DNA of 64,000 nucleotides from an uncultured Anaerolineae bacterium (GTDB lineage Bacteria > Chloroflexota > Anaerolineae > Fen-1058), in the NCBI GenBank assembly GCA_964550855.1, contig CAZKBQ010000009.1:6009-70008 (forward strand), read 5' to 3'. The stretch's first letter is position 1, and every line of letters begins with the position of its first letter. The notes beneath the pieces were generated by a model, which saw only the letters and a list, made by a program, of their open reading frames with translations, was not told the origin of the DNA and ran no database searches. A program made the translations under genes and the position numbers. Of the stretch, positions 29,067 through 42,868 are shown piece by piece.

Positions 29067-31256
29067 TCAGCGCACGGTCGCGGGCAGGAACAGGGCGTGA
29101 GATAGCGGAAGCGCCTGCACCACGTTGGATGTATCCAGCGCCGTCGGGCCGGTACTCATCGCCTGCACGGTAACCGTGTATGGCAGACCGTCAGTCAGAC
29201 CAGTCAGCATCAGGCCGGCTGCTAAGCCGACTTCGATGGTCGTCCCTTCGTTAGGCGGGGCGGCGTCGGCAGAAGGTTCTACTGTCACGAGGTAATGATC
29301 GACCTGGGCGGCCAGGTGCGGCTCGGTCAGCCATGAAGCATACAGCCGCCCATGGCCGACGGGGGCAGCCACCAGAACCATCGGCAAGTATTCATCTGCG
29401 CCGATATCGGGCGGCGCCAACAATGTCCGAGATTCACCGTCGATGTCGATGGTCAGTCCGCTGCCTACCGCCGCGTCGCGCGCCGCAGACCGGCCAAAGA
29501 TGTGATAGTCAAAATCGGGCGCGCCAGGCGATACAAAATTCGCCGTGCCGGTAATCATCGTCTCCAGCCCCGTTATCACGCCGCGATAGGCGACGTTGAT
29601 GTTGGTTTCGGGAAATTGATTGTTGCTCCACAAGCCGCGGGTCAGAGTAACGATCGATCCGGGCTGCACGTGGAGGGCGTGCCCTGCACCGATGTGTTCG
29701 ATGCCGCCTGCATGATCGGCAAACAATGTGTAATCGAACACCACGCGCGACTCCGGCATGGTGGGCTTGACGGGGCCAATCACGATGGCGCCCGGCGCAA
29801 ACAGGCCGTCGCTAACGGTGTTGCCGGCGATGGTGGTATGCGAGATTACACCGGCCATGCCTTGAAGCCACAGACCGCCGCCACCGCCGCCATAGATCGT
29901 ACCGGTGATGGCCAACAGGGCGTGGTTGGAGCCGATGATGCTGTTTTTGAGGATGACGTTGCCAAAGACTGGATCGAAGTGCGTAAAGGCCAATCCACCG
30001 CCGCCCACCGGCCCCCGATAGTAACCGCCGTTGCCGCCGCGCGCCACATTGTTGACAACCAGCGCTCGATCCATGGCGACATTAGCATCATCGGATTGCA
30101 GCGCGCCGCCTTCGGCAATGGCCGCGCCCGGCGTTGGATTAAGGCCGTCGCCGCCCTGCGCCAGATTATCGCGCAGTACGGTATCCACGTATTGAGCCTG
30201 GCCGTGTTCAAGGTAGAACGCCCCGCCGAAGGCGCCGCCGGCATCCCCGTTGGGCGCATTGCCGCCCAGCGCCCGATTGCCGATGGCCGTAACGTGAGAG
30301 AAGTTGGCCACGGAGCCGTTGTAGAACGCGGCCGCGCCGCCCTGCGCGTCGGCGTAGAGGTAGTATTGAAAAGAATCGAACCACTCGCGGCCGGAGCCGT
30401 TGGTGTCGCCGGCCTGCGCCAGATTGTTGGTAAACGTGACGTACGAGGCGCTGACGATGACGCTGTAGACGTGCAGCGCGCCGCCCACTGCCACGCCGCC
30501 CAGGTTTTGGCCGCGCCCACCTTGCGCCACGTTGTCCTCGAATCGCACGTTTTCCAGCAGGTTGAAAGTGGGCGGCGACAGGTAATTGCTCATCGATAAA
30601 GCGGCGCCCACCGCCCGCCCGCCGATGGTCATATCCACCGCGCCGCCCTGCGCGCGGTTGTTGCGGAAGATCAGATTGCGCAGCGTGAGCGATGAATAGA
30701 CCGACTGTATGGCGCCCCCGTAAGCGGAAGTCTCGACTATCGAGCCGTAGTACACGCCTGCTGCCAGGCAGTTTTGCAGGATGAAGCCTTCCAGGCGCAG
30801 GGCCGAACTCTTAACCAGGATACCGCGATTCTCGCCTCCACCGTCGATGATAGTGGGATAGCGCTCCCAATCGGCAGTCGTCCAGTCATCGCCTGAGTAT
30901 CCGCCCAAAATCGTGAGGTCTTTCTTGTTGATACACAATACCGCCGTGGTGTAGCCCAAGTCATAGCATTTGACCTGATTGGGTGGCAGCCGGTACGTGC
31001 CCTGCGCCACCAGGATTGTATCGCCGGAAACCGCGCGGGTGAGGGCGTAGCTGATCGATCGACAGGGCATCTCAGGCGAGCCACAATCTCGATCGTCAAG
31101 GCCGGTGGTCGAAACGCGAATCGTGCCGGTGCCGCGTTGTGACGCGACGGGCGGCACGCTGGAAGTCAAGAGCATCAGCGCAGCGCCAATCATCATGCCC
31201 GCCAGGAAAGGGCGGAACGATCGGGAATGCCAGAAGAGCGTCAGGAGGGTTTTCAA
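29067..31256 (-). CDS. Secreted right-handed parallel beta-helix protein (choice-of-anchor-Q-like) with C-terminal Fn3-like domain
   Basis: 729 aa if it starts at TTG 31256 (ATG 31196 is the alternative). Signal anchor present. N-terminal cap CGSPEMPCRSISYALTRAVSGDTILVAQGTY. Many Gly/Asn-rich beta-helix coils (NN.A.GG). DIGADEY motif, then an Fn3-like tail. Confidence 0.85.
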   Translation of the reverse strand: MKTLLTLFWHSRSFRPFLAGMMIGAALMLLTSSVPPVASQRGTGTIRVSTTGLDDRDCGSPEMPCRSISYALTRAVSGDTILVAQGTYRLPPNQVKCYDLGYTTAVLCINKKDLTILGGYSGDDWTTADWERYPTIIDGGGENRGILVKSSALRLEGFILQNCLAAGVYYGSIVETSAYGGAIQSVYSSLTLRNLIFRNNRAQGGAVDMTIGGRAVGAALSMSNYLSPPTFNLLENVRFEDNVAQGGRGQNLGGVAVGGALHVYSVIVSASYVTFTNNLAQAGDTNGSGREWFDSFQYYLYADAQGGAAAFYNGSVANFSHVTAIGNRALGGNAPNGDAGGAFGGAFYLEHGQAQYVDTVLRDNLAQGGDGLNPTPGAAIAEGGALQSDDANVAMDRALVVNNVARGGNGGYYRGPVGGGGLAFTHFDPVFGNVILKNSIIGSNHALLAITGTIYGGGGGGLWLQGMAGVISHTTIAGNTVSDGLFAPGAIVIGPVKPTMPESRVVFDYTLFADHAGGIEHIGAGHALHVQPGSIVTLTRGLWSNNQFPETNINVAYRGVITGLETMITGTANFVSPGAPDFDYHIFGRSAARDAAVGSGLTIDIDGESRTLLAPPDIGADEYLPMVLVAAPVGHGRLYASWLTEPHLAAQVDHYLVTVEPSADAAPPNEGTTIEVGLAAGLMLTGLTDGLPYTVTVQAMSTGPTALDTSNVVQALPLSHALFLPATVR

Positions 31257-31352: not shown

Positions 31353-33503
31353 TTAGCGAAAAGTACCGGGCAGTCTTACCGCATATGGATACGGTGTGGC
31401 CGGGGTCGCATTGGAGCTGTCCAGCAGCGTATTGGAACTGTTGTAAGCCGCCAGCGTGAAGACATATTCCCGACCGTTGGTTAAGCCGGTCAAAGTCAGC
31501 GTCGATTTCAGGCCAACGTTGATCGTCGAGCCTTGAGCGGGCGGCGTGGCGCCGGGCGGCGTGACGACCGTGATGACGTAGTGATGGGTGCTGGCGGCCA
31601 GCAGATCGTTGGTCAGCCAGCTGAGTGTGATGCGACCGCTGCCGGTGGGGGCCGCGCCGAACACAAACGGGATATACTCGTCGGCACCGATGTCGGCCGG
31701 CGCAAATTCCGTGCGCGATTCGACATCCAGGTCCACCTGGTCGTCGCTATCCACGGCCTGGTTGCGCGCGGCCGAGTTGCCCAGGATATGATAGTTGTAG
31801 TCGGGCGCGCCCGGCGACGCGAAGCGGGCGGCGCCGCTGAGCATGGTGCCCAGACCGTTGATGGTGCCTGCCGCGTAACCGCCGCTGTTGGTGTTGAGCG
31901 TGTTGTTGCTCCACAGGCCGCGCTTCAGGTTGATGGTGCTGCCCGCCTGAACATAGACCGCGCCGCTGCCGCCGGTGTGATCGGCAATGATCAGGTAATT
32001 GGCGTTAACGGTGGTGCCCGCGGCCGGCCCATACGGCCCGATGACCACTATCCCTGATCCGACCAGCCCACTATCGACGGTGTTGCGCGCCAGCGTCGAA
32101 TGGGTGAGATTAACCGTCAACCCTTGCAACCACAATCCGCCGCCGCCGCCGCCCTGTAGCTGCCCGGTCGTGGCCAGCTGTACACGATTGTCGGCAATGA
32201 TGCTGTTATTGACGTTGATCGTGAAATTGGAGGATTCAATACCGGTGAACGAAGCGCCACCGCCGCCCGCCGGCCCTTTGTACACGGTTCCATTGCCGCC
32301 GCGCACGGTGTTGTTGATGATGGTCACTCGCTCCAGCGTGATATTGGCATCATCGCTGTGAAACGCCCCGCCTTCGGCCAGGCCGCCCGCGCCGGCAGCG
32401 GTGTTCGCACCGTCGCCGCCCTGGACCAGATTGTCACGCAATTCGGCATCGCGCAACGTTGTGTTGGCGTGTTCCACATAGAAGGCCCCGCCAAACGCCG
32501 CGCCCGATGTCCCGTTGGGTGTATTGCCGCCGAAAACCTGGTTGCCTGTGGCGGTCACGTACTGAAAATCGCCGACGGAATCGTTGTAGATCGACACGGC
32601 GCCGCCCTGCGCATCAGAATAGATGTAACCGCCCAGACCGCTGCCGTTGGATGAACCCGACTGCGCCACGTTGCCGGTGAAGGTGAGGCGCCGGCCGGTC
32701 ACATACACCCGATAAGCGTGCATGGCCCCGCCGATGGCATTGCCGCCGCGCTGCACGCCGGTGCCGCCGATTGCCGAGTTGTTCTCAAAGACCACATTGT
32801 CCAGCCAGACGTTGTACGGCGTCGTTCCGAAATTGTTGAACGCTAAGGCCGCGCCTACAGCGCTCCCGCCATATTCCAGATTGGTGTTACCGCCACGCGC
32901 CTGGTTGTGGCGGAAGATCATGTTGCGCAGTGTGATCGGCGCGAGCGTGGCCGACATTCCGCCGCCATAGGCGTGAATCGCCAGTTCAGTACCGCTGGAT
33001 GCGCCCTGCGCCAGACCGTCCTTGATGATAAAACCTTCCACCCGATAAGTGCCGTTCTGTAGCGCCATGCCGCGATATTGGTTCTGGCCGTCAATAACGG
33101 TGAGATACCGCGCCGGATCGGCCGCCGTCCAATCGTAACCCGAATACCCGCCCAGGATCGTCAGGTCTTTGCCGTTCACACACACCACTGCGCTGGTCAC
33201 ACCAAAGTCAGGGCAGGGCGTCGTCGGCGCGCTGGCTGCATCGTACGTGTAGACCCCTTCCGCCACCAGCACCGTGTCGCCCGACAGCGCGCGGCGGGTG
33301 CCATACTGGACTGTGCGGCACGGATTCTGCTCGGAGCCGCAGCTCTGATCATTCTGCCCCCACGGAGCCACCCGCACGATGCCGGTTCCGCGCTGCGCAT
33401 ATGAGATCGGTGTGTTGACGCTCAACGCGGCGGTCAGCAAACTGACCACCATTCCAACGATGGCGATTCTTGATAAGGTGTATTTGGGTGCTCTGGTATT
33501 CAT
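31353..33503 (-). CDS. Secreted right-handed parallel beta-helix protein (paralog of 29067-31256)
   Basis: 716 aa from ATG 33503 (MNTRAPKYTLSRIAIVGMVVSLLTAAL). CGSEQNPCRTVQYGTRRALSGDTVLVAEGVY cap. Colinear with its neighbour (roughly half the residues identical by eye), including GGGGGGLWLQG and DIGADEY. Confidence 0.85.
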   Translation of the reverse strand: MNTRAPKYTLSRIAIVGMVVSLLTAALSVNTPISYAQRGTGIVRVAPWGQNDQSCGSEQNPCRTVQYGTRRALSGDTVLVAEGVYTYDAASAPTTPCPDFGVTSAVVCVNGKDLTILGGYSGYDWTAADPARYLTVIDGQNQYRGMALQNGTYRVEGFIIKDGLAQGASSGTELAIHAYGGGMSATLAPITLRNMIFRHNQARGGNTNLEYGGSAVGAALAFNNFGTTPYNVWLDNVVFENNSAIGGTGVQRGGNAIGGAMHAYRVYVTGRRLTFTGNVAQSGSSNGSGLGGYIYSDAQGGAVSIYNDSVGDFQYVTATGNQVFGGNTPNGTSGAAFGGAFYVEHANTTLRDAELRDNLVQGGDGANTAAGAGGLAEGGAFHSDDANITLERVTIINNTVRGGNGTVYKGPAGGGGASFTGIESSNFTINVNNSIIADNRVQLATTGQLQGGGGGGLWLQGLTVNLTHSTLARNTVDSGLVGSGIVVIGPYGPAAGTTVNANYLIIADHTGGSGAVYVQAGSTINLKRGLWSNNTLNTNSGGYAAGTINGLGTMLSGAARFASPGAPDYNYHILGNSAARNQAVDSDDQVDLDVESRTEFAPADIGADEYIPFVFGAAPTGSGRITLSWLTNDLLAASTHHYVITVVTPPGATPPAQGSTINVGLKSTLTLTGLTNGREYVFTLAAYNSSNTLLDSSNATPATPYPYAVRLPGTFR

Positions 33504-33603
33504 TTGCCCGCTCCAATTTTCTAACCTTTGTAAACAACCACGACACAAGTCTAACCTTATGATACACCGACCTCAATAGAGAGGAAGTCATGTTGAGGCG
33601 ATC

Positions 33604-33676: not shown

Positions 33677-36232
33677 TCACCGAGGGACTATCTGCACCCG
33701 ATCGATCACGAAGCCCAACGTGCGATCGTCGGCGCTGAGGTGCAAGGCAGCGGGGTTAAAACTCGCGGTGTCAAAAGCCAATGTCGATGAGTCGCCGGCC
33801 GGCCGGGATTGAACCTGAAACGCATAAGTCTGCCATTCCCCATAGCGCGGTGTAAAGCGCCCAATCTCGCGCCCGTCCAATGACACGCTCACTTCGGCGG
33901 GCGGCAGATCCTCCGGGCGAAACGTCATCGCGCGCACCGTGATCGTGATCGGAGCCGCCTCCGCCAACGGCAGATCGATGATGGCCCGATCGCTCGTCCA
34001 GCGCGCCGACGTCCCATCGGGCAAAATATCCTTGGCGTAAAAACCTGATCGTAGATAAGCTGCATCCAATGTGCCGACGTCGATCTCAATCGGCAGTGGC
34101 GCAGCACGCAAGTCTTTACGCTGCACATCATAGATCTCAAAGCCGTAATACGCCGGCTGAATCACCGCTGGATAATCGTAAAACGTCCCCATCAAAGCGC
34201 GCAAAGTTGTGGAATACAGGCCCGCCGGCTTCAGATCGATAGCGTGATGCACCGCCGCCGGCAGGGGATCGATCGTCAGCAGCTGCACCGGCCGATTGGA
34301 TGCGGCGGCCTGCGCCAAAACCCGATCGAGCACGGCGGCGACCGCGGCTTCGTCTTCGCTGCGGATCGTCGCCACATCGTGTCCAAAGGTAAAACGCAGC
34401 GGCACGCCCAACGCATCGGCCAGTGACGATTCCGGCGGATCGACCATGACCACGATGGCGTTCGGCTTCAGCTGCGCATTGAGCGCGGTCAGCGCATCCA
34501 CCGCGCCAAAGAAATCACGCTGCGGCAGCACAAACCGTGCCTGATAGATCAGCCCGGCCATCAGGCCCAGCGTCAATGCCAGCGCCGCGCCACGAGTGAG
34601 CCAGCGCCGACGCCAGTCCCACATTCCCCACAAGGCGTAAGCCGCAAAGATCATCAGCGTCGGCAGAACAATGGGCACATAGCGGCGCATGGCGTAGATG
34701 TGATACGGGGTGTTGAAGATGTTATACACGTATTGAATCGTCGTCAGCACGCCCACCGACAGGAACAGGCCCAGCCGCAGCAGCGCAGCGCGGCGCACCA
34801 GCCAAGCCGCGCCCCACGTCGCCAGCCCGATGCCGAGCGGCGTGATGTACCAGCCTATCCGCACCCAGTTCTGCGCGTCGAGCACGGGATACTGCACGTT
34901 GCCGGGCCAGGCCGTGACAAAGCGGATCGGCTCGATGACGGGGCGCACGAAATAAGCAAAAATACTGATCGCCGTCAGCCCGCCCGCCAGCAGCCAGCGG
35001 GCGCGCTGCCGCGCCGCCGATGACAATGTCCGGCGACGCCAGCGCCGCCGCAGCGCGCTGACGGCGATGACCGTCGCCAGCATGCCGGCCGCGCCGCCGG
35101 CGGCGATCACCGGCGAGCGCTCCAGCAGGCGCGCCACACTGCCATACGTGTTCCAGGCATACGGCCAGTTGATGGCGATCAGATCGATCAACATGTGAAC
35201 GGTGAAGATGCCCAGCGTCAGCGTGAACCACGTCCACGCGCGCGTCCACTGCCCGCGCGCCCGCACGGCGATCAACGCCACGCCGATCAACGCCAGCACC
35301 AGCGGCAGATCGATGCGCGTCAGCACGGCCGCGCCGAAGGCCGCGCCGCCGAAGACGCCCCAGATGGCGGGCGCCGATCGATCGTCGATCAGGACTTGAA
35401 AAGCCAGCAGGCCGCTGAAGACCAGCAGCAGCGTCAGCGGCTCGGTGGTGGGGTAGCGCGCAAAGTAGATGTGCGTGGGCGTGAGCGCCAGCAGCGTCGC
35501 GGCCAGCAGCGCCACCCGCCGATCGAACAGCTGTCGCGCCGCAAAATACACCGCCGCCAGGCTCAGCACACCCCACAGCGGCGTGACCAGCAGGCCCAGC
35601 TTCAGGCCGCCCAGACTGGTGCCTACGGCGACGAGCGCGGGATGCAGGGGCAAAAACTGAGGGATGATGCGCCCGGCGTCCGCGTCGTCCAGGTAATAGC
35701 CGACAAACTGTAGATAGCGCGTCTGCCACGCGGGCGGCTGCCGGCGCAGGGTCACGTCGGGATAGTCGCGCATGAGCCGCGACCAATCGTCGCCGGTCAC
35801 GACAAATTGGCCGGTCTGCGCCAGGGTGCTGCTGATGTTCAGATACGTGCCCGCATCGGTGCCGCCCAGCACGTACTCGTGCGGCCGGAAGTACACCACG
35901 GCGCTGCCGATAAGCAGGACTGCTAAACCGACTTCGTATCGTGTGGGGGCGCGGAAGATCGATCGGGGACGGCGGCGAAGCCAAAAGAGCAGCCCCACGG
36001 AGCAGACCCATTCGATCAGGCCGATCCAGCCGATCGAGTACGAGTTGATTGACGCCAGGATCACGCCGATCCAGCCGGTGACGATGACGGCGCTGATGAC
36101 GGCGAGGAATACGGCCAGCGGCCAGTCGAGCGGGCGCGCGCTGGCGGCCCAGGCCAGCAACGCAGTGGTGATCAACGCGAGGCAGCCGGTGACGAACAGG
36201 ATCGCGGCCGGCGCGTCAACTACGCCGATCAT
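33677..36232 (-). CDS. Large GT-C-like polytopic membrane glycosyltransferase with C-terminal extracytoplasmic domain
   Basis: 851 aa with about 15 TM helices. The YVLGGTDAGTYLN loop and ALTPTHIYFARYPTTEPL segment resemble ArnT/PMT_2-type enzymes. A ~290-aa soluble C-terminus ends in DDRTLGFVIDRVQIVPR. The start overlaps the wzt-like stop (ATGA). Confidence 0.8.
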   Translation of the reverse strand: MIGVVDAPAAILFVTGCLALITTALLAWAASARPLDWPLAVFLAVISAVIVTGWIGVILASINSYSIGWIGLIEWVCSVGLLFWLRRRPRSIFRAPTRYEVGLAVLLIGSAVVYFRPHEYVLGGTDAGTYLNISSTLAQTGQFVVTGDDWSRLMRDYPDVTLRRQPPAWQTRYLQFVGYYLDDADAGRIIPQFLPLHPALVAVGTSLGGLKLGLLVTPLWGVLSLAAVYFAARQLFDRRVALLAATLLALTPTHIYFARYPTTEPLTLLLVFSGLLAFQVLIDDRSAPAIWGVFGGAAFGAAVLTRIDLPLVLALIGVALIAVRARGQWTRAWTWFTLTLGIFTVHMLIDLIAINWPYAWNTYGSVARLLERSPVIAAGGAAGMLATVIAVSALRRRWRRRTLSSAARQRARWLLAGGLTAISIFAYFVRPVIEPIRFVTAWPGNVQYPVLDAQNWVRIGWYITPLGIGLATWGAAWLVRRAALLRLGLFLSVGVLTTIQYVYNIFNTPYHIYAMRRYVPIVLPTLMIFAAYALWGMWDWRRRWLTRGAALALTLGLMAGLIYQARFVLPQRDFFGAVDALTALNAQLKPNAIVVMVDPPESSLADALGVPLRFTFGHDVATIRSEDEAAVAAVLDRVLAQAAASNRPVQLLTIDPLPAAVHHAIDLKPAGLYSTTLRALMGTFYDYPAVIQPAYYGFEIYDVQRKDLRAAPLPIEIDVGTLDAAYLRSGFYAKDILPDGTSARWTSDRAIIDLPLAEAAPITITVRAMTFRPEDLPPAEVSVSLDGREIGRFTPRYGEWQTYAFQVQSRPAGDSSTLAFDTASFNPAALHLSADDRTLGFVIDRVQIVPR

Positions 36233-37485
36233 GCCCGGCCCGCGATGACGGTTTCTGCTTGCGGCGCATGCTGCCAGCGGGCGGGCAGATGCACCACGCC
36301 GGACTCATTCCAGCCGGTGCGTGAGCGAACTTCAAGCGGATAAAGGCGGTGATGGTGATCGATGGCGACGGTGGAGTCGCGGTTGTAGATGGCGACGGTG
36401 AGCTCGTATTCGCCGGGATTGAGCGGGAGCGCGTCGATGATGTAGTCCACCGTGCCGTCGCCTTCGATGTAGGGGATGTCGTAGCCGTCGGCCACCGAGT
36501 TGGGACCGTTGATGTGCAGGCCGTCGCGGCGGTAAAACGCCAGTCCAAACGTGGGCGTCTCCAGCCGCTCGTGTGCGCGGTAATGCAGGCGCAGCGTAAA
36601 GGCTTCGCCGGTCTTGAATTGGGTGCGAGGTTGACCGTCGGCGCCCAACAGTTCCACCTGCACGATCTCGGCTTGATAGGTGCCAAAGCGATTGGCCGAG
36701 CGCGCGGCGATGGTGGGCGCTCGGCGCTTGATCTTGACCTGGGCCTGCTCGTCCGTGTACTCGCCGCCGAGCAGCGCCGGGTCGCCGTCGGCGCGCAGCA
36801 AGCCGTCGGAGATCCACAAGGCCCGGTTGCACAACTGCTGAATCTGGCCCATGCTGTGCGAGACCAGCACCAGCGTAACACCCTGCGTCTGCAATTCCGT
36901 CAGCCTTTCGGCGCACTTGCGTTGAAAGGCCGCGTCGCCCACGGCCAGCACCTCGTCGATCAGCAGGATGTCGGGGTTAAGCGCGGTGCTCACGGCAAAG
37001 CCCAGCCGCACGATCATGCCCGACGAGTAGTTGCGAACCTGCACGTCGATGAACGGGCCGATGTCGGCGAAATCGATGATGGCGTCCAGCTGGCGTTTGA
37101 TCTCGGCCCGGGAGATGCCCAGGATGGAGGCGTTGAGAAAAATGTTCTCGCGCCCGGTCAGATCGGGGTGAAAGCCGGTACCCAATTCCAGCAACCCGGC
37201 GATGCGTCCCTGCGTGTGGATGCGGCCGGTGGTCGGCTCGATCACACGACTCATGAGCTTGAGCAGCGTGCTCTTGCCGGAGCCGTTGGTGCCGATGATG
37301 CCCACGCGCTCGCCGGGCTGAATCTCAAACGACACGTCGCGCAACGCCCAGAAGGTGCCGCCGCTGACGCGTTCGTGGTCGGCGCGCTGGCGCCGCCGGA
37401 TCAGCAGCTCCTGCAGCGAGCGAGCGCGCCCCAGGTTGAGGTCGAACTTTTTGGCGACGTGATCGAAGACGATGGCCGGCGTCAC
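36229..37485 (-). CDS. Wzt/TagH-type polysaccharide-export ABC ATPase with C-terminal carbohydrate-binding (Wzt_C-like) domain
   Basis: 418 aa with a GTG start. Walker A GTNGSGKST, signature YSSGM, Walker B ILLIDEVLAVGD. A ~150-aa beta-rich C-terminal extension (GEAFTLRLHYRA...FGLAFYRRDG...GEYELTVAIY). Confidence 0.9.
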   Translation of the reverse strand: MTPAIVFDHVAKKFDLNLGRARSLQELLIRRRQRADHERVSGGTFWALRDVSFEIQPGERVGIIGTNGSGKSTLLKLMSRVIEPTTGRIHTQGRIAGLLELGTGFHPDLTGRENIFLNASILGISRAEIKRQLDAIIDFADIGPFIDVQVRNYSSGMIVRLGFAVSTALNPDILLIDEVLAVGDAAFQRKCAERLTELQTQGVTLVLVSHSMGQIQQLCNRALWISDGLLRADGDPALLGGEYTDEQAQVKIKRRAPTIAARSANRFGTYQAEIVQVELLGADGQPRTQFKTGEAFTLRLHYRAHERLETPTFGLAFYRRDGLHINGPNSVADGYDIPYIEGDGTVDYIIDALPLNPGEYELTVAIYNRDSTVAIDHHHRLYPLEVRSRTGWNESGVVHLPARWQHAPQAETVIAGRA

Positions 37486-37497
37486 GACGAATACACC

Positions 37498-38520
37498 TTA
37501 TGCGAACAAGTGCGGGTTGGCGTCGATCCACTGCCACAGGCGGGCGACGCCATCGGGCATGGCGACGCGCGGCTGCCAGTGAAGATCGCGCTGTGCTTTG
37601 CGAATATCGCTGATATACACCGGTTGATCGCCGGGTCGCCAGTCGCCGCGGGCGACTGCGATCGATCGGCCGGCGAGCGACTCCAAAAATGGGCCGAATT
37701 CCGCCCAGATTGACATGGTGCTGTCCGGGCCGCCGCCAATGTTGTAAACCTGTCCGGCGGCAGTGTCGATGTGGTCGGCCGCGGCCTGATAAGCGGCAAT
37801 CAGATCGTCGATCCACAGCACGTCGCGTACTTGCTTGCCGTCGCCGTAGATCGTGATGGGGCGGCCGAGCCGCGCCGCGATGCAGAAGTGGGCCACCCAG
37901 CCCTGATCTTCCACGCCGAACTGGCGCGGGCCATAGATGCAGCTCTGCCGGAAGACCACGGTTTTCAGCCCGTAAATGCGGTGATAATCACGCACATACT
38001 GATCGCCGGCGCCTTTGCTGCAGCCATAAGGCGAATGGAAATCGAGCAGGCGATCTTCAGGAACGCCCAACGGCAGATCGCGATAGCGATAGCGCGTCAC
38101 TTCTTCCACGATGGCGATGTCTTCCATGCCGCCGTAGACTTTGTTGGTGGACGCGTAAAAGACCACGGCGTGCGGGGCATTGGCGCGCACCGCCTCCAGC
38201 ACGTTGAAGGTGCCCAGCGCATTGATCTCAAAATCTTCGCGGGGATCCTTGACCGAGGTGGTGACGGCCACCTGGCCGGCGAAGTGATAGACCCGATCGA
38301 TCTCGGCGGGCAGGGCGGCCTGCAGCGCCTCAAAGTCGCGCACGTCGCCGTGGATAAAGGCCAGCCGTTCGCCGTGGCGCTGTCGCAGCCAATCCAGGTT
38401 GAGCGGCGCGCCGCGGCGCGATAAGTTGTCGAAGACGATCACGTAATCGCCGCGTGCCAGATGATAATCGGCCAGGTTGGCGCCGATGAAGCCGGCGCCG
38501 CCGGTAATAAAGACGTTCAC
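37498..38520 (-). CDS. NAD-dependent nucleotide-sugar epimerase/dehydratase (SDR family)
   Basis: 340 aa from GTG 38520, giving (M)NVFITGGAGFIGANL. GGGAG lies 10 nt upstream. ATG 38574 would add an 18-aa non-conserved leader. YGCSK catalytic Tyr-x3-Lys. Confidence 0.85.
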   Translation of the reverse strand: MNVFITGGAGFIGANLADYHLARGDYVIVFDNLSRRGAPLNLDWLRQRHGERLAFIHGDVRDFEALQAALPAEIDRVYHFAGQVAVTTSVKDPREDFEINALGTFNVLEAVRANAPHAVVFYASTNKVYGGMEDIAIVEEVTRYRYRDLPLGVPEDRLLDFHSPYGCSKGAGDQYVRDYHRIYGLKTVVFRQSCIYGPRQFGVEDQGWVAHFCIAARLGRPITIYGDGKQVRDVLWIDDLIAAYQAAADHIDTAAGQVYNIGGGPDSTMSIWAEFGPFLESLAGRSIAVARGDWRPGDQPVYISDIRKAQRDLHWQPRVAMPDGVARLWQWIDANPHLFA

Positions 38521-38592
38521 GCTGCCGGTGCTCCCATCCAATCGATTGTGATGCGAACGGCTATTATACTGCATTCGCCCGGGGGCACGGGG

Positions 38593-39576
38593 TCAATCGC
38601 GGGCGGGTTTGTCGGTGTCGGCCGCGGCGCGCTCGCGCTCAATCTCTGCGCGGCGCTGGCGATAGAGTATTTCTTCCATCAGACGGCGGCTCTCGCCGAT
38701 GCGATCGGCCAGCAGGCCGAAGATCATCACCAGGAAGCCCACGATCAGCGCCATCACGGCGACGATCAGCGACTGCACGTTGCCGGGCAGGTTGAAGTCA
38801 CGGCTGATGAAAATGATCAGCAGCCGCGCAAAGAGCACCGCGGCCAGCAGCCAGAACGGCACTGACAGGTAAAAGAACGTCTTGAGCGGCTCGTACGTGG
38901 CGTAGGCGCGCACGATGGTGGCGGCCTGCCGCTTGACAAAGTGCCACGAGCCGCGGTGCAGCTTGGAGGGGCGCGTGGGATTGGTGGTGATGGGCACGTG
39001 CGCCACTTTAAGTCCACGCTTGCCGGCTTGAATGAGATTGTCGAGCGTGTACGAAAAATCGGAGGTGACGAACAACCGCAGAGCGGCTTCCCGACTGTAC
39101 GCCCGAAAGCCGCTGGGCGCATCGGGCACACTGGTGCCGCTGGCCATGCGCACGATCCAGCTGCCGAAGCGTTCCAGCACGCGTTTTTGCGCCGAAAAAT
39201 GCTCGATCTGGCCCACCTGTCGATCGCCGATGACGAGATCGGCGGCCTGATCGAGCAGGGGTTTGATCAGGGCGGGGATGTGTTCGCCGGGATACTGGTG
39301 ATCGCCGTCGGTGTTGACGATGAGATCCGCACCCAGCCGCAAGCCGGCATCCAGGCCGGCCTGAAACGCAAACGCCAGGCCGCGGTTGAGCGGCAGCGAG
39401 ACGATGTGATCGGCGCCCGCGGCGCGGGCCTCGGCCACCGTGCCGTCGCGCGAGCCATCGTCGATGACCAGCACTTCCACGCGGTCAACGCCGTCGATCT
39501 GGCGCGGCACATCACGAATGACCTGCGCGATGGTGGCCTCTTCGTTGAAGGCCGGAATTTGCACGATAAGTTTCAT
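38593..39576 (-). CDS. GT2 polyprenyl-phosphate glycosyltransferase (DPM1/GtrB-like) with two C-terminal TM helices
   Basis: 327 aa. IVQIPAFNEE, VLVIDDGSRDGT and NTDGDHQY (DxD). C-terminal hydrophobic hairpin. Confidence 0.9.
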   Translation of the reverse strand: MKLIVQIPAFNEEATIAQVIRDVPRQIDGVDRVEVLVIDDGSRDGTVAEARAAGADHIVSLPLNRGLAFAFQAGLDAGLRLGADLIVNTDGDHQYPGEHIPALIKPLLDQAADLVIGDRQVGQIEHFSAQKRVLERFGSWIVRMASGTSVPDAPSGFRAYSREAALRLFVTSDFSYTLDNLIQAGKRGLKVAHVPITTNPTRPSKLHRGSWHFVKRQAATIVRAYATYEPLKTFFYLSVPFWLLAAVLFARLLIIFISRDFNLPGNVQSLIVAVMALIVGFLVMIFGLLADRIGESRRLMEEILYRQRRAEIERERAAADTDKPARD

Positions 39577-39602: not shown

Positions 39603-40958
39603 ATGGCGCGCGTGACGACTCTATCCGTTGATCGCCGTTGGTTGCGCGCCATACCGATCGGGTTGTATCTAGTGCTCAGTGCATTGTACTTGCTGGCCGT
39701 GCCGCCCGGCGAAGCCCCCGACGAGCCTTCGCATCTGCAGTGCATCGAGCAGGTCAGCCTGCTGGGACGCCTGCCCGAAGTTGAACCCAGGCCCACCGGC
39801 GTGTGGTGGTCGCGCACGCATGTAATCAGCGGCTATCTGTGTCAACACCTGCCGCTGTATTATCTGATCGCGGGCGGGATTCAGCAAGCCGTTCACGCCC
39901 TGACCAACACGCCCATCCATTTTGAGTTTCCGCCCAACTACCCGCAAGGCCCGCAGCCTGCGATGTTTCAACATGCCCGGCCAGCACTGGCGCTGAGCGA
40001 TTCGCCCGCGGTGTTAGCCCTGCGCGTGCTATCCATCGGGCTGGGATTGGTCACGGTGTGGACGGCTTACCGCGTCACGCGCTCCATTCTACCAGACAAC
40101 GCGCCCGGCTGGCCGGCTGTGGCCGCCGCGACGCTGGTCGCGGGCTGGCCGCAATTCCTGTTTATGAGCCGTGCGATCAACAACGATGTGCTGGCGACGG
40201 CGCTGGCCGCGCTGGTGCTGTTGATCCTGCTGCCGGTGGGTCGTCCGCGCCGATTGATCTTCGCGACGATTACGGCCTGCCTGGCTGTGCTGGCCAAGCT
40301 CAACATGATCTTCACGCTGGGGGCTGTCGGCGCGGCCTATCTCATCGAGTTTGCGGCCTATCGCGATCAACGCCGCGCTTATGCCTTCTCGGCCGCCATC
40401 AGCGTCGGGGTCAGCGTGGGCGCGGCGGCGCTCACCCTCTTACAGCCCACGGTGGGCGCCCATCTGGTGCGTGATCTGCAGGCCTTCAACGGCAGCGCGC
40501 CGCAGGCCCTCACCCTCACTTACTGGCTGGATGTGCTGGGCTGGTCGATGAGTTCGGGGTATGCGCGGCTGGGCTGGATGAATGTGCCGGCTCCCGACTG
40601 GCAGGCGCTGGCGTGGTGGGTGTTCATCGGCGTCACGGCACTGATCGGCGCGGTAACAGCTGTGCGCAACGCGACCGATCGACCTCGGCGCGTCCGGTTG
40701 ATGGTGCTGGGCGTCTGGGCGCTGGCCGTGCTGGCCGCTTACGTGAAGCTCAACTTAAGCCGCTTCCAGCCACAGTTCCGCTACGTTTTTGCGTTGCTGC
40801 CGGTGCTGACGGCGGTTGCGGCCATCGGCTACCATCGCTTGCTGCCCTCATCATCTCGCGCGCAGCGGGCCAGCTTACTGGGCCTGGCCCTGGCGCTGCT
40901 GGCAATCAACGTCTGGATCGTCTTCGGCTTGATCGCGCCAACCTACGCGAGCGGTTGA
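39603..40958 (+). CDS. Polytopic membrane protein, DUF2142-like putative GT-C glycosyltransferase
   Basis: 451 aa. The N-terminal loop PPGEAPDEPSHLQCIEQV matches the PDE..H signature I associate with DUF2142. About 11 TM helices. It is divergent from the GT2 gene, with only 26 nt between the start codons. Confidence 0.75.
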   Translation: MARVTTLSVDRRWLRAIPIGLYLVLSALYLLAVPPGEAPDEPSHLQCIEQVSLLGRLPEVEPRPTGVWWSRTHVISGYLCQHLPLYYLIAGGIQQAVHALTNTPIHFEFPPNYPQGPQPAMFQHARPALALSDSPAVLALRVLSIGLGLVTVWTAYRVTRSILPDNAPGWPAVAAATLVAGWPQFLFMSRAINNDVLATALAALVLLILLPVGRPRRLIFATITACLAVLAKLNMIFTLGAVGAAYLIEFAAYRDQRRAYAFSAAISVGVSVGAAALTLLQPTVGAHLVRDLQAFNGSAPQALTLTYWLDVLGWSMSSGYARLGWMNVPAPDWQALAWWVFIGVTALIGAVTAVRNATDRPRRVRLMVLGVWALAVLAAYVKLNLSRFQPQFRYVFALLPVLTAVAAIGYHRLLPSSSRAQRASLLGLALALLAINVWIVFGLIAPTYASG

Positions 40959-41047: not shown

Positions 41048-42868
41048 TCATCGCGCGGCGGGCGTGATGGGCAGGCCCGTCACACGGAAATTGTCGAAGC
41101 GGGCATCCGATTTGGGTGTCACCTCGTACGGGATGGTGATGACGCCCACACCGGTCAGACCGGTGATCGAACCATCTGACCAGGTCAAATACGAGTAGCC
41201 GTTGGCGCCCACCGAAATCTGATCGGCGTTGCGCGTGACCTTCAGGTGATTGGGCGTGCCGTAATTGTTCAGGCCCGGCACCAGGCCGCCGTTGAGGTAG
41301 GTGTAGCCGTTCGCGTCGAAGCGATACAGTGCGAAGCCGCCGTAATCGGTGCTGACAATGAACAGGTAGTAGCGACTGAAGTCGGCTGTGACGCCGAAGA
41401 TCAGCCCGTAGAATTTGCCAGGTGTGCCTTCCCAGCGCGCATCAACTTCCACCACGTAGTTCTGCCGACTGCAGGTGGGGGCGCGGAATGCATAGCTGTA
41501 TCCGCTGTGCTTGCTGTAGACCCGGAACTCGCCGTTCAGATATTGCGACAGCACGTTCCCGTCTTCAACCACCAGCCAGCCGCTGGCGGGATTACTAAAA
41601 TCATCAAAGTAATCCGGGCAGTTGTTGTAGTTGCGGGCCGTCATCGGTTGAAAGACTTGACGAATGGGATCGGCCGGATCAAACTCATAGGCCCCGATGT
41701 CGCAACGCGCGACGGTGTCGCCGTCGCCATCCACCGGGCGCGGCCGGCCCCGTTGATCCGATGTGAGAACCTCGCCCTGATGATTCAAACAGCCGGCCGG
41801 ATCACCGTGATCGATGGCGGCGCTGCCGGCGAACAAGGCGTAGCTGCCGCCCAGCAGCAAGCCGTTCGCTTTCACGTTGAGCCGATCGCCGGTGGACGCC
41901 GTAAACGAGCAGCCCGATGTCGTGCTGACGAGGTTATAGCCCTCACTGGTGAGGGCGCCGGCGCAGTCGGACTTGCCCGCGTTGCGCACACGATTATCCG
42001 CAATCAGGCTGTTGCGCAACGTCAGCGCACCCACGTTGTTTGCCACACCGGCCCCGCTCAGGCCGCCTTCGTTCTCAGTCACTGTGACATTATTGAGTTC
42101 GACACTGCCGCCATAATAGTTGTACACTCCGCACCCGCTGAAGCCGCAGGTGTTGCGACTGATGGTGCTGTTGTCCAGCACCACCGTCCCCCACGAGTTG
42201 TACAGGCCGCCTACCAGTCCACCGCCCGATGAGTTGTGCCCGATAAATGAATTGATCACGCTCAGCTGGCTGCCCACATTGTAAATGCCGCCAACGTCGC
42301 TGATGATCTGGCTGCCGGTGATCGTCATCACCCCGGCGTTGACGATGCCGCCTTTTTCGGAAAAGCTGTTGTTATCCGCCACGATGGAATTGGTCAGGGT
42401 CAACACGCCATTGTTCTGGATGCCGCCCGCTTCGTTGTCGTTGACGGGGTGATAACCGTGTCGCACGGTAAACCGATCGAGACTGGCAGTTACGCCATTG
42501 CCCACCGTCAGCCCGCGCCGCGTGGCTTCGCCATCGATAATCGATTCTCCGGTCTGCGCCGTAAACGCGGCATCCCAGCCGCCTGTCAGCGCGAGGTCTT
42601 TGTCAATGACCACCACGGCTGTGCCTGCGGCGGCTGTGTAAACGCCCGCTGCTACTCGCACGCTATCGCCGGCCGCCGCCTTGCCGATGGCGGCGTTGAT
42701 GGTGGCGCAGGGAGCGTTCGGCGAGAGGCAGTCATTGGCATCGCTGCCGCCTGGGGCCACATACCATCCATCCGATGCAAAAACTGTCCTGGACGCCAGC
42801 TGCATCGCGATGATCCCCGACGCCATCAGCAGCATGGGAAACAGGACACGGACGAGTTGTCTCAACAT
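41048..42868 (-). CDS. Secreted beta-helix protein (choice-of-anchor-Q-like) fused to a C-terminal lectin/LamG- or DUF1080-like beta-sandwich
   Basis: 606 aa from ATG 42868 (MLRQLVRVLFPMLLMASGIIAM). Cap DANDCLSPNAPCATINAAIGKAAAGDSVRVAAGVY. The beta-helix coils end in RCDIGAYEF, followed by a ~190-aa domain (FDDFSNPASGW...FRVY...YYLFIV...FDNFRV). Confidence 0.85.
   Translation of the reverse strand: MLRQLVRVLFPMLLMASGIIAMQLASRTVFASDGWYVAPGGSDANDCLSPNAPCATINAAIGKAAAGDSVRVAAGVYTAAAGTAVVVIDKDLALTGGWDAAFTAQTGESIIDGEATRRGLTVGNGVTASLDRFTVRHGYHPVNDNEAGGIQNNGVLTLTNSIVADNNSFSEKGGIVNAGVMTITGSQIISDVGGIYNVGSQLSVINSFIGHNSSGGGLVGGLYNSWGTVVLDNSTISRNTCGFSGCGVYNYYGGSVELNNVTVTENEGGLSGAGVANNVGALTLRNSLIADNRVRNAGKSDCAGALTSEGYNLVSTTSGCSFTASTGDRLNVKANGLLLGGSYALFAGSAAIDHGDPAGCLNHQGEVLTSDQRGRPRPVDGDGDTVARCDIGAYEFDPADPIRQVFQPMTARNYNNCPDYFDDFSNPASGWLVVEDGNVLSQYLNGEFRVYSKHSGYSYAFRAPTCSRQNYVVEVDARWEGTPGKFYGLIFGVTADFSRYYLFIVSTDYGGFALYRFDANGYTYLNGGLVPGLNNYGTPNHLKVTRNADQISVGANGYSYLTWSDGSITGLTGVGVITIPYEVTPKSDARFDNFRVTGLPITPAAR

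What the first reader, a model, noticed from the sequence alone, without database searches (positions are those of the whole stretch)
33677..37485. Wzt-type ABC ATPase is translationally coupled to an 851-aa GT-C protein, with no Wzm permease
The ATPase has all Wzt/TagH hallmarks, including the YSSGM signature. It also has a C-terminal beta-sandwich of the type that recognises the capped end of a glycan in ABC-transporter-dependent O-antigen export.

In characterised systems wzt sits next to wzm, an ABC-2 permease of about 260 aa. Here its stop overlaps (ATGA at 36229-36232) the start of a ~15-TM ArnT/PMT-like protein with a large extracytoplasmic domain. Upstream lies an epimerase.

The only ABC-2 permease in the window (45548-46333) has its own ATPase. 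There are two possibilities. The permease may be encoded elsewhere. Alternatively, the ATPase may work with the GT-C protein, coupling export directly to extracytoplasmic transfer. I do not know of a described arrangement of the second kind.

Two SAM methyltransferases in the region could supply a terminal methyl cap for the Wzt_C-like domain.
Basis: partly seen in the sequence, partly recalled or inferred. Interest (0 to 1): 0.65.

Follow-up and report, generated by a model that had tools for sequence, protein, structure and literature searches.

The report
Wzt ATPase with distant permease gene
The sugar-polymer export ATPase fused end-to-start with a large membrane glycosyltransferase is real. 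It is part of a cell-wall glycan gene cluster common in Chloroflexota, where the missing permease gene normally lies 3-22 kb away, so a permease-free machine is unlikely.

Summary
On the minus strand lie a polyprenyl-phosphate sugar synthase-like GT2, an epimerase, a Wzt ATPase (ABC_tran + Wzt_C) and an 851-aa GT-C. The last two overlap by ATGA at 36229-36232. No Wzm-type permease is present anywhere in the 64 kb.

The exciting reading, that Wzt drives the GT-C without a permease, is not supported. The GT-C defines a conserved Chloroflexota family. Its gene sits directly behind wzt in about 20 of 38 ortholog loci, often with the same 4-bp overlap.

In 17 related contigs that hold both genes, wzm is never next to wzt. 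It lies 3.0-21.7 kb away, at one end of the same cluster, and in two genomes it is followed directly by an LCP wall-ligase gene. Wzm was found only in loci that also hold Wzt (15/33 vs 0/39).

The window carries only the proximal half of this cluster. The half holding the polymerising glycosyltransferases and, in relatives, wzm is elsewhere in the genome.

Best reading: a canonical Wzm/Wzt exporter of a wall-linked glycan, plus an uncharacterised extracytoplasmic GT-C with a CBM-like domain that acts on the exported polymer. It resembles streptococcal GacDE/GacI/GacL and mycobacterial Wzm-Wzt plus GT-C enzymes. Whether the window's own genome encodes a wzm could not be checked.

The parts
39603..40958 (+). 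DUF2142 polytopic membrane protein (451 aa, about 9 TM), divergently transcribed. It recurs next to wzt/GT-C in the window clade and in L018 and L075.
   Evidence: PF09913, 38.1 bits against a cut-off of 30.1. Hydropathy. Synteny.
38593..39576 (-). GT2 (GT-A) glycosyltransferase with two C-terminal TM helices. It resembles polyprenyl-phosphate sugar synthases (GtrB/AglJ/PpgS/ArnC).
   Evidence: PF00535, E 3.8e-21. NCBIfam best hits are AglJ, PpgS, dolichyl-P hexose transferase and ArnC, all below the equivalog cut-offs. TM helices at 239-257 and 270-288.
37498..38574 (-). NAD-dependent sugar-nucleotide epimerase/dehydratase (358 aa).
   Evidence: PF01370 and PF16363, E about 1e-50. Conserved upstream of wzt in the window clade.
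36229..37485 (-). Wzt: the nucleotide-binding subunit of a polysaccharide ABC exporter (418 aa). The NBD is at about residues 44-240.
   Evidence: It is 52% identical over its full length to the Litorilinea Wzt.
36289..36696 (-). Wzt_C carbohydrate-binding beta-sandwich (residues 264-399 of Wzt).
   Evidence: PF14524, E 1.2e-29. It aligns with the A. aeolicus Wzt CBD.
36229..36232 (-). ATGA overlap of the wzt stop and the GT-C start.
   Evidence: The same 4-bp overlap occurs in 11 related loci (one a near-identical copy of the window region), and gaps are at most 53 nt in nearly all others.
33677..36232 (-). 851-aa GT-C glycosyltransferase of an uncharacterised Chloroflexota family with a distant PMT_2 match.
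35978..36214 (-). Three extra N-terminal TM helices (residues 7-85) that precede the canonical GT-C TM1. They are conserved in the family whether or not wzt is adjacent.
   Evidence: AF2 helices 7-29, 37-61 and 67-85. Conserved L25, D36, F42, G53, W54 and L59 in A1, which includes orthologues without an adjacent wzt.
35678..35866 (-). First extracytoplasmic loop carrying invariant acidic residues: PHEYVLGGxDAGTY (E119, D126) and DDAD (D182, D185). This is the presumed catalytic, modified DxD region.
   Evidence: Invariant columns in A1. Motif scan. Position after TM4 in the model. The catalytic role is inferred from what is known of the GT-C class (PMC8035078).
33680..34504 (-). C-terminal extracytoplasmic domain. 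Residues 577-664 form an alpha/beta unit. Residues about 665-850 form a CBM-like beta-sandwich.
   Evidence: AF2 secondary structure. Foldseek hits to CBM6, CBM22, CBM35 and CBM36 modules, E 4e-4 to 1e-3. Weak PF16841 CBM60 hit.
31353..33548 (-). Secreted or anchored beta-helix protein with a C-terminal fn3 domain (731 aa). A homologue follows the GT-C in most ortholog loci.
   Evidence: fn3, E 5.5e-5. Panel synteny, fn717/bhelA. Pel9A-like_beta_helix and fn3 in relatives.
29067..31256 (-). Paralogue of the beta-helix/fn3 protein (729 aa).
41048..42913 (-). Third secreted beta-helix-like protein (621 aa) flanking the module.
   Evidence: Pel9A-like_beta_helix (weak) for the identical gene in L001..

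Best explanation
The locus is the proximal half of a gene cluster, conserved in Chloroflexota, for an ABC-transporter-dependent and probably peptidoglycan-anchored cell-envelope glycan.

Wzt is an ordinary nucleotide-binding subunit. Its C-terminal carbohydrate-binding domain checks the capped end of a polyprenyl-diphosphate-linked polymer. Wzt powers a Wzm permease dimer whose gene is not adjacent.

In relatives, wzm sits at the far end of the same cluster, 3-22 kb away. In two genomes it directly abuts an LCP ligase gene. In this genome the distal half of the cluster has been separated from the window.

The 851-aa GT-C works outside the membrane. Using a polyprenyl-phosphate-linked sugar, it adds sugar to the exported polymer, which its CBM-like C-terminal domain holds. 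In the window clade that donor is probably made by the upstream GtrB-like GT2 from a sugar nucleotide prepared by the epimerase.

The tight wzt/GT-C junction reflects co-expression of an export step and a post-export step. It possibly also reflects physical proximity. It does not indicate a permease-free transporter.

Shown: the domain identities, the synteny, and the location of Wzm in relatives. Inferred: the donor, the acceptor, the wall linkage, and the existence of wzm elsewhere in this particular genome.
For: 1. Identity of the parts.

2. The GT-C family has 147 homologues, nearly all about 850 aa, and the named ones are Chloroflexota. The alignment has 55% mean column identity.

3. The survey covered 79 genome loci plus 13 more from look-ups. 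The conserved core is GT-C, then a methyl- or sulfotransferase, a beta-helix/fn3 protein, GT2, a GT2-GT4 fusion of about 770 aa, a coiled-coil protein of about 228 aa, and GT4.

4. wzt lies directly upstream of the GT-C in about 20 of 38 ortholog loci, spread over several deep clades.

5. Wzm (PF01061) is in the same cluster but never adjacent to wzt. The gaps are 3.0-10.4 kb in 15 loci and 21.7 kb on JADJXA010000004.1. On contig_11295, where wzt is only an IS-disrupted fragment, wzm lies 16.8 kb past the GT-C.

6. Wzm co-occurs only with Wzt: 15/33 vs 0/39, p 9e-7.

7. wzm is directly followed by LytR_cpsA_psr genes in L095 and L096.

8. The window lacks the whole distal half of the cluster.

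9. The window Wzt is 52% identical over both the NBD and the CBD to the Litorilinea Wzt, which has a cluster-encoded Wzm.

10. The GT-C model is a GT-C-A fold with a CBM-like sandwich. Large GT-C enzymes with carbohydrate-binding domains are thought to bind polymer acceptors (PMC8035078).

11. Precedents: GacDE + GacI + GacL + LCP (10.1101/180810, PMC8035078); three-component decoration of ABC-dependent O antigens (PMC11127046); the mycobacterial wzt-glfT1-wzm operon with downstream GT-C arabinosyltransferases, and PpgS/Rv3779 (PMC13018209, PMC5964476).
Against: - No wzm could be shown for the window's own genome or for its closest clade (L002, L006, L085, L087). There, 10 kb on each side shows none.
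- Two Wzm searches returned no hit on the 770,884-bp contig of L002.
- No flippase (GtrA, Wzx or MATE) for a polyprenyl-phosphate sugar was found in the operon.
- The GtrB-like GT2 is linked to the GT-C only in the window clade (plus one opposite-strand copy 4 kb upstream in L017), although the GT-C is universal in the cluster.
- The best structural matches are oligosaccharyltransferases rather than ArnT/PMT. TM-scores are low throughout, 0.29-0.55.
- Donor and acceptor are untested.
Confidence: 0.72

Rival explanations
1. The GT-C is an en bloc transferase (an oligosaccharyltransferase or ligase). It takes the finished polyprenyl-diphosphate-linked glycan delivered by Wzm/Wzt and transfers it whole to an acceptor. 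A likely acceptor is the co-conserved secreted beta-helix/fn3 proteins encoded just downstream. On this reading the wzt-GT-C coupling pairs export with final transfer.
For: - The Foldseek top hits are AglB and STT3 oligosaccharyltransferases (E about 1e-9), ahead of ArnT (1e-7) and Pmt4 (1e-3).
- There is a weak NCBIfam hit to archaeal STT3.
- The GT-C is universal in the cluster, whereas a polyprenyl-phosphate sugar synthase is linked only in the window clade, apart from one opposite-strand copy in L017.
- A beta-helix/fn3 protein follows the GT-C in most loci.
Against: - There is no WWDYG-type motif.
- The STT3 model scores 25 bits against a cut-off of 450.
- TM-scores are only 0.35-0.45.
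- LCP ligase genes directly follow wzm in two genomes, which already supplies a wall-attachment enzyme.
- The C-terminal CBM-like module suggests a glycan acceptor rather than a peptide acceptor.
Confidence: 0.15
2. The GT-C docks physically onto a Wzm2Wzt2 exporter. The glycan emerging from the channel is then modified or handed on directly. The conserved translational coupling keeps the stoichiometry matched. This is compatible with the best explanation but adds a supercomplex.
For: - The wzt-GT-C junction is a 4-bp overlap or at most 53 nt in 24 of 26 loci with wzt upstream of an ortholog, spread over several deep clades, while the rest of the gene order varies.
- wzm is similarly followed directly by the LCP gene in two genomes, with no or almost no gap.
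- The family has three conserved extra N-terminal helices of unknown role.
Against: - About half of the orthologues have no wzt within 10 kb.
- In JADJXA010000004.1, wzt lies 6.3 kb upstream of the GT-C.
- The extra helices are equally conserved in those orthologues.
Confidence: 0.2
3. There is no Wzm at all. The Wzt dimer docks on the GT-C, or on another polytopic protein of the operon such as DUF2142, which then serves as the transmembrane partner. Export and extracytoplasmic transfer would be fused in one machine.
For: - No wzm lies within reach in the window or in any locus of the window clade.
- The coupling is tight and conserved.
- In L085 the GT2-epimerase-Wzt module is tandemly duplicated without a permease gene.
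Against: - Orthologous Wzt proteins in sister clades have a cluster-encoded Wzm.
- Wzm is often beyond 10 kb, so its absence from the flanks is uninformative.
- The window lacks the entire distal half of the cluster, where wzm lies in those two contigs and in L008/L034.
- The GT-C has only very short cytoplasmic loops and no Wzm-like segment.
- GT-C orthologues exist without any nearby Wzt.
- All structurally characterised Wzt/TagH-type NBDs listed pair with Wzm/TarG-type permeases (PMC13018209).
Confidence: 0.04
4. The GT-C is a bacterial protein O-mannosyltransferase (GT39-like). It uses polyprenyl-phosphate mannose made by the upstream GT2 to glycosylate secreted proteins. Its position next to wzt is incidental.
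For: - The PMT_2 match. Some homologues also hit PF02366 PMT, and NCBI names them 'glycosyltransferase family 39'.
- A GT2 of the Dpm1/Ppm1/GtrB type lies upstream.
- Secreted proteins are encoded next door.
Against: - The linkage with wzt and with the polymer-synthesis genes is conserved.
- The profile finds no sequence-level match to any solved PMT.
- The Foldseek match to Pmt4 is weak (E 1e-3).
- The CBM-like domain points to a glycan acceptor.
Confidence: 0.08

Closest known systems
Streptococcal group A carbohydrate pathway (GacDE ABC exporter, GacI polyprenyl-P-GlcNAc synthase, GacL GT-C, LCP ligases), and multi-component transmembrane glycosylation systems of Gram-positive wall polymers in general
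   Same: - The polymer is built on a lipid carrier in the cytoplasm and exported by a Wzm/Wzt-type ABC transporter.
- It is decorated outside by a GT-C that uses a polyprenyl-phosphate sugar made by a membrane GT-A.
- It is linked to peptidoglycan by LCP enzymes (10.1101/180810, PMC8035078).

The Chloroflexota clusters contain each of these gene types.
   Different: - The GT-C belongs to a different, uncharacterised family. It has three extra N-terminal helices and a C-terminal alpha/beta plus CBM-like domain.
- wzt is fused in register to the GT-C gene, and wzm is 3-22 kb away.
- Wzt carries a CBD.
- No flippase gene was identified.
- Nothing has been tested biochemically.
Three-component extracytoplasmic glycosylation of ABC-transporter-dependent O antigens (Citrobacter youngae O1/O2, Klebsiella O2; GtrA/GtrB/Gtr* prototype)
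   Same: - A CBD-bearing Wzt works with a chain terminator.
- A polyprenyl-phosphate sugar synthase, an auxiliary epimerase and a GT-C add side-chain sugars after export (PMC11127046).
   Different: - In those loci wzm and wzt are both present in the locus, and a MATE or GtrA flippase is encoded.
- Here the host is a Chloroflexota member without LPS.
- The GT-C is about 300 aa larger.
- The terminator and polymerase genes are not in the window.
Mycobacterial arabinogalactan assembly (wzt-glfT1-wzm operon, GT-C arabinosyltransferases AftA/Emb, PpgS + Rv3779 GalN transferase, LCP ligase)
   Same: - wzt and wzm are not adjacent; a glycosyltransferase gene lies between them.
- GT-C enzymes act on the exported lipid-linked polymer. 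Some large mycobacterial GT-C enzymes, such as AftD, carry carbohydrate-binding domains.
- An LCP enzyme ligates the product to peptidoglycan (PMC13018209, PMC5964476, PMC8035078).
- AftA is among the Foldseek hits.
   Different: - The mycobacterial Wzt lacks a CBD.
- The separation of wzt and wzm there is one gene, not 3-22 kb.
- There is no sequence-level relationship between the GT-C families.
Aquifex aeolicus / E. coli O9a WzmWzt O-antigen exporter
   Same: - It is the best solved relative of the ATPase (E 2e-65), including the CBD.
- The same signature motifs are present.
   Different: - No adjacent wzm here.
- NCBIfam equivalog cut-offs for TagH and galactan Wzt are not reached.

Membership tests
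Wzt/TagH-type polysaccharide ABC exporter ATPase | ABC NBD with Walker A, a YSSGM-type signature, Walker B and an H-loop | tested here: met
   GTNGSGKS at 65, YSSGM at 153, ILLIDE at 173, SH at 209. PF00005, E 9e-22.
Wzt/TagH-type polysaccharide ABC exporter ATPase | Closest relatives are Wzt/TagH/TarH rather than other ABC subfamilies | tested here: met
   The top PDB sequence hits are A. aeolicus Wzt, TagH, TarH and mycobacterial RfbE/Wzt. The top NCBIfam hits are TagH and galactan Wzt.
Wzt/TagH-type polysaccharide ABC exporter ATPase | Reaches an NCBIfam equivalog cut-off (TagH or galactan Wzt) | tested here: not met
   208.7 bits against 538, 189.7 against 400 and 175.1 against 320. It is a family member but not an equivalog of a named transporter.
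Wzt/TagH-type polysaccharide ABC exporter ATPase | C-terminal carbohydrate-binding domain (Wzt_C) in the CBD-bearing subclass | tested here: met
   PF14524, 103.5 bits against a cut-off of 30.4, residues 264-399. It aligns to the 8dku CBD.
Wzt/TagH-type polysaccharide ABC exporter ATPase | A cognate Wzm (ABC2_membrane, PF01061) permease encoded in the same genome | not testable with these tools
   Absent from the 64-kb window and from 3.3 kb to its left. Present in the same cluster in 17 related contigs. The source genome could not be searched.
GT-C (GT-C-A) membrane glycosyltransferase | Polytopic membrane core with the GT-C fold | tested here: met
   AF2 model with pLDDT 83.6. Foldseek probability is 1.00 to AglB, STT3, ArnT, ALG12, DPY19, PglB, AftA and Pmt4. 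PF13231 is above its cut-off.
GT-C (GT-C-A) membrane glycosyltransferase | Conserved acidic (modified DxD) residues in the first extracytoplasmic loop | tested here: met
   Invariant E119, D126, D182 and D185 in the loop after the fourth helix. The catalytic role is inferred.
STT3/PglB/AglB oligosaccharyltransferase | WWDYG motif and a family-level sequence match | tested here: not met
   No WW[DE][YFW]G motif. TIGR04154 scores 25 bits against 450. No PDB sequence hit with the family profile.
Protein O-mannosyltransferase (GT39) | Match to the PMT family model (PF02366) or to solved PMTs | tested here: inconclusive
   The window protein hits only PF13231 PMT_2. Some homologues also carry PF02366. 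The profile finds no solved PMT. Foldseek to Pmt4 gives E 1e-3.
Multi-component (three-component) transmembrane glycosylation system | Membrane-linked GT-A that makes a polyprenyl-phosphate sugar | tested here: inconclusive
   The GT2 has two C-terminal TM helices, and its best hits are AglJ, PpgS and ArnC, all below cut-offs. Activity is untested.
Multi-component (three-component) transmembrane glycosylation system | Dedicated flippase (GtrA, Wzx or MATE type) in the locus | tested here: not met
   None among the 48 window ORFs scanned with Pfam. Two DedA/VTT proteins at 60042-61499 are the only lipid-carrier-related candidates.
Multi-component (three-component) transmembrane glycosylation system | GT-C transfers the sugar to a polymer outside the membrane | not testable with these tools
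   Only inferred, from the fold, the CBM-like domain and the synteny.
ABC-transporter-dependent glycan assembly cluster | Cytoplasmic polymerising GTs, a terminator or cap enzyme, and Wzm + Wzt in one locus | tested here: not met
   The window holds only Wzt. The GT2, GT2-GT4 fusion, coiled-coil protein, GT4, CmcI-type methyltransferase and Wzm of relatives are absent from it. Between them, the related clusters hold all of these genes; on JADJXA010000004.1 all are present, though wzt is called in two pieces.

The most novel reading that the evidence does not exclude
In the window's clade (the Thermoflexales-like lineage with the order DUF2142 / GT2 / epimerase / wzt / GT-C) there may be no Wzm at all. 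The Wzt dimer would then dock on the GT-C, perhaps through the family-specific N-terminal three-helix extension and the basic cytoplasmic loops. ATP hydrolysis would drive export and extracytoplasmic transfer in one machine.

A milder version, which I rate at about 0.2, is that the GT-C forms a supercomplex with a normal Wzm2Wzt2.
Probability: 0.04. Interest if true: 0.85.

Novelty: new member of a known kind. Interest (0 to 1): 0.33.

Why it matters
The composition of the Chloroflexota cell envelope is poorly known. Its extra layers are thought to be polysaccharide or protein (PMC13319060).

This survey defines a gene cluster shared by Anaerolineae, Caldilineae, Ardenticatenaceae/Promineifilaceae and Thermoflexales-like lineages. 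It combines:
- a CBD-bearing Wzt and a Wzm followed directly by an LCP ligase gene (the latter seen in two genomes);
- a large multi-domain polymerase-like glycosyltransferase;
- cap enzymes (methyl- or sulfotransferases);
- secreted beta-helix/fn3 proteins;
- an uncharacterised family of 850-aa GT-C enzymes.

That makes it a good candidate for the pathway building a major wall-linked glycan in this phylum. One member, Litorilinea aerophila, is cultured, which makes the idea testable.

For the specific claim, the value is mainly corrective. In this lineage wzm and wzt are routinely kilobases apart, so a missing neighbour is not evidence for a new transporter type.

The conserved in-register wzt/GT-C and wzm/LCP junctions hint that export and post-export steps are co-ordinated. 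How those steps are co-ordinated is an open question for Gram-positive wall polymers too (PMC8035078).

Tried and rejected
1. Looking for wzm in the window. Pfam scans of 48 ORFs and a six-frame scan with a Chloroflexota Wzm HMM (--max, E up to 100) found nothing.

2. The 228-aa conserved protein as a hidden permease. It has no TM segment and looks like a coiled coil. Rejected.

3. The window's ABC-2 permease (45548-46333) as the partner. It is PF12679 type, follows its own DrrA-type ATPase after 10 nt, and does not match the Wzm HMM. Rejected.

4. Reaching beyond the 10-kb flanks in the window clade.
- A metagenome scan with the L002 GT4 did not return the L002 contig.
- Matching 'longest_contig' between the Wzm and GT-C hit lists linked six other contigs, but not the 770,884-bp L002 contig.

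5. Extending the window to the left through an identical protein. This gave 3.3 kb more: a Vgb_lyase-like gene, then pyrB, and no wzm.

6. Sequence search of solved structures with the GT-C profile gave no hit. PADLOC gave only generic ATPase hits.

7. Literature searches for a described wzt/GT-C pairing or for this Chloroflexota cluster found none.

8. A multimer prediction of Wzt with the GT-C was not possible with the single-chain tool. The length limit (1269 aa for both chains) also ruled it out.

Full report
**What is in the window**

The minus strand between 39576 and 33677 carries four closely spaced genes (gaps of 18 and 12 nt, then a 4-bp overlap).

- 38593-39576: a GT2 glycosyltransferase with two C-terminal TM helices. 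Its best NCBIfam matches are polyprenyl-phosphate sugar synthases (AglJ, PpgS, dolichyl-phosphate hexose transferase, ArnC). All are below the equivalog cut-offs.
- 37498-38574: an NAD-dependent epimerase/dehydratase.
- 36229-37485: a 418-aa ABC ATPase.
- 33677-36232: an 851-aa polytopic protein.

The ATPase stop and the next start share ATGA at 36229-36232.

The ATPase has ABC_tran plus Wzt_C (103.5 bits against a cut-off of 30.4) and all catalytic motifs, including YSSGM. It aligns with Aquifex aeolicus Wzt through the carbohydrate-binding domain (E 2e-65).

The 851-aa protein matches PMT_2. A DUF2142 membrane protein is divergently transcribed (39603-40958). Three secreted beta-helix/fn3 proteins flank the module.

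**No Wzm in the window**

Pfam scans of 48 ORFs found no PF01061. These cover nearly all ORFs that pass a codon-position GC filter. A Wzm HMM built from Chloroflexota orthologues was run without filters on every six-frame segment. Its best result was E=3.

The single ABC-2 permease (45548-46333) is of a different type and follows its own DrrA-like ATPase.

**The GT-C is a conserved Chloroflexota family**

A protein search returned 147 homologues. Nearly all are about 850 aa and cover the full length. Those with names come from Thermoflexales, Anaerolineae, Ardenticatenaceae, Caldilineaceae and Litorilinea.

Seventeen diverse members align with 55% mean column identity. Invariant acidic residues lie in the first extracytoplasmic loop: PHEYVLGGxDAGTY and DDAD.

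The AF2 model is confident (pLDDT 83.6, pTM 0.84). It shows:
- three extra N-terminal helices before the canonical GT-C core;
- very short cytoplasmic loops;
- a C-terminal extracytoplasmic alpha/beta unit followed by a beta-sandwich.

Foldseek places the core with GT-C-A enzymes: AglB/STT3 at E about 1e-9, ArnT at 1e-7, then ALG12, DPY19, PglB, AftA and Pmt4. It places the sandwich with CBM6, CBM22, CBM35 and CBM36 modules.

There is no sequence-level match to any solved structure and no WWDYG motif. The protein is therefore an uncharacterised GT-C, not a member of the STT3 family.

**Gene neighbourhoods**

A scan of 185,579 species-representative genomes gave 79 loci. Look-ups added 13 more. 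I labelled the genes by phmmer with a panel of cluster proteins.

Orthologues share a core with this order:
1. GT-C
2. a CmcI-type or class I methyltransferase, or a sulfotransferase
3. a secreted beta-helix/fn3 protein
4. GT2
5. a GT2-GT4 fusion of about 770 aa
6. a coiled-coil protein of about 228 aa
7. GT4

This is the make-up of an ABC-transporter-dependent pathway, with a multi-domain polymerase and a cap or terminator (compare PMC11127046).

wzt lies directly upstream of the GT-C in about 20 of 38 ortholog loci. The junction is a 4-bp overlap in 11 related loci (one a near-identical copy of the window region), a 3-nt gap in the window clade, and at most 53 nt in nearly all others. These loci fall in several deep branches of a GT-C similarity tree. 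Two branches have lost the adjacency.

**Where wzm is**

An HMM of the Chloroflexota Wzm found it in 16 of the loci, and never next to wzt.

- In Caldilineae the order is wzm, Vgb_lyase-like, PMT_2, two secreted GH-like/CARDB proteins, wzt, GT-C. The gap between wzm and wzt is about 5.9 kb.
- In Ardenticatenaceae and Promineifilaceae, wzm lies after the coiled-coil gene, about 10 kb downstream.

Six more contigs carry both.

- On JADJXA010000004.1, wzt opens the cluster and wzm closes it. wzm is 21.7 kb from wzt and 12.8 kb past the GT-C.
- On contig_11295, wzm lies 16.8 kb past the GT-C.

In both of these genomes, wzm is directly followed by a LytR-CpsA-Psr (LCP) gene. This points to a polymer ligated to peptidoglycan.

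Wzm occurs only where Wzt occurs: 15 of 33 loci against 0 of 39 (p 9e-7).

Two consequences follow. A wzt with no wzm beside it is the rule in this lineage. And the absence of wzm within 10 kb, as in L002, L006, L018, L085 and L087, says little.

**The window's own arrangement**

The window has the proximal part of the cluster: DUF2142, GT2, epimerase, wzt, GT-C and the beta-helix proteins. It lacks the whole distal part (GT2, GT2-GT4, coiled-coil protein, GT4, cap enzymes), which is also where wzm lies in those two contigs and in L008/L034. The cluster is therefore split in this genome.

The window Wzt is 52% identical over both the NBD and the CBD to the Litorilinea Wzt, whose cluster encodes Wzm. 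By orthology it should use the same kind of partner.

I could not search the source genome, so the existence of its wzm is inferred.

**Mechanism proposed**

- Cytoplasmic glycosyltransferases build a capped polymer on a polyprenyl diphosphate carrier.
- The Wzt CBD recognises the cap, and Wzm2Wzt2 exports the polymer.
- Outside, the GT-C binds the polymer through its CBM-like domain and adds sugar from a polyprenyl-phosphate donor. In the window clade the donor would be supplied by the adjacent GtrB-like GT2 and epimerase.
- An LCP enzyme attaches the product to the wall.

This matches known systems:
- streptococcal GacDE/GacI/GacL plus LCP (10.1101/180810, PMC8035078);
- three-component decoration of ABC-dependent O antigens (PMC11127046);
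- mycobacterial Wzm-Wzt followed by GT-C enzymes, where wzt and wzm are also separated by a glycosyltransferase gene (PMC13018209, PMC5964476).

Large GT-C enzymes with carbohydrate-binding domains are thought to hold polymer acceptors (PMC8035078).

**Rivals**

1. *An en bloc transferase role.* It is favoured by the oligosaccharyltransferase-first Foldseek ranking, the universal presence of the GT-C, and the co-conserved secreted proteins. It is weakened by the LCP genes, the missing OST motifs and the low TM-scores.
2. *A supercomplex of the GT-C with Wzm/Wzt.* It is plausible given the conserved junctions but is untested. About half of the orthologues lack a nearby wzt.
3. *The permease-free model.* It is not excluded for the window clade but has nothing specific in its favour. 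The GT-C has no Wzm-like segment, and its extra helices are equally conserved in orthologues that have no adjacent wzt.

**Verdict**

The finding is a correct observation. Its ordinary explanation is the better one: a canonical Wzt whose permease gene lies elsewhere.

What is new is modest but real. There is an uncharacterised GT-C family, and a widely conserved Chloroflexota wall-glycan cluster with an unusual layout: wzt fused to a GT-C gene, wzm followed directly by an LCP gene, and the two transporter genes kilobases apart.

Noticed in passing
window 282-6914 (and L098:974-10197): A second glycosylation module. In order: a Vgb_lyase-like gene just left of the window, a 481-aa protein, a GH-like protein of about 539 aa, a 518-aa PMT_2 GT-C (1904-3460), a 383-aa GT2 with a C-terminal TM domain (3479-4630), a SAM methyltransferase (about 4627-5400) and a CARDB-like secreted protein (5271-6914). 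It is homologous to the block that lies between wzm and wzt in Caldilineae. Here pyrB flanks it and there is no wzm.
   Followed up: partly
L095:10001-12585 and L096:10001-12489: wzm is directly followed by a LytR-CpsA-Psr (LCP) ligase gene in two Chloroflexota genomes. This mirrors the wzt/GT-C junction and suggests the exported glycan is anchored to peptidoglycan.
   Followed up: partly
L085:2887-9997: The GT2-epimerase-Wzt module is tandemly duplicated in a 66%-identical relative. The two Wzt copies are 68% identical across both the NBD and the CBD. One permease might serve two ATPases with different cap specificities.
   Followed up: partly
window 24569-28999: A third PMT_2 GT-C (680 aa) lies next to a 768-aa secreted protein with LysM and SdrD_B-like domains and a C-terminal TM anchor.
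   Followed up: no
window 17854-21946: A WbaP-like phosphoglycosyltransferase (Bac_transf + CoA_binding_3) and two GT4 genes. These are a possible initiation module for a lipid-linked glycan. They are not orthologues of the cluster's GT4 genes.
   Followed up: no
window 60042-61499: Two tandem DedA/VTT-domain membrane proteins. From general knowledge, this family has been implicated in recycling of polyprenyl-phosphate carriers. They are the only candidates in the window for handling lipid carriers, since no GtrA, Wzx or MATE flippase is present.
   Followed up: no
L094:12591-13433, L094:20085-20924, L097:9051-9851: In some clusters sulfotransferases take the place of the methyltransferases. 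This suggests sulfate rather than methyl caps or decorations on the same kind of polymer.
   Followed up: no
L095:4497-6659: On contig_11295, wzt survives only as a fragment (a 142-aa piece plus a 152-aa Wzt_C piece) next to a DDE transposase. [quoted passage not shown]
   Followed up: no
L032, L033, L036, L039, L057: GT-C orthologues or paralogues sit on contigs assigned to Klebsiella, Binatia, Deltaproteobacteria, Enterobacteriaceae and Zixibacteria MAGs. The cluster context looks Chloroflexota-like, so this is probably mis-binning, less likely horizontal transfer.
   Followed up: no
window 82-283: The longest ORF at 82-1899 overlaps an upstream ORF that runs off the window's left end. The gene call in an identical contig starts about 200 nt later (539 aa), so the 605-aa ORF is over-extended.
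   Followed up: yes
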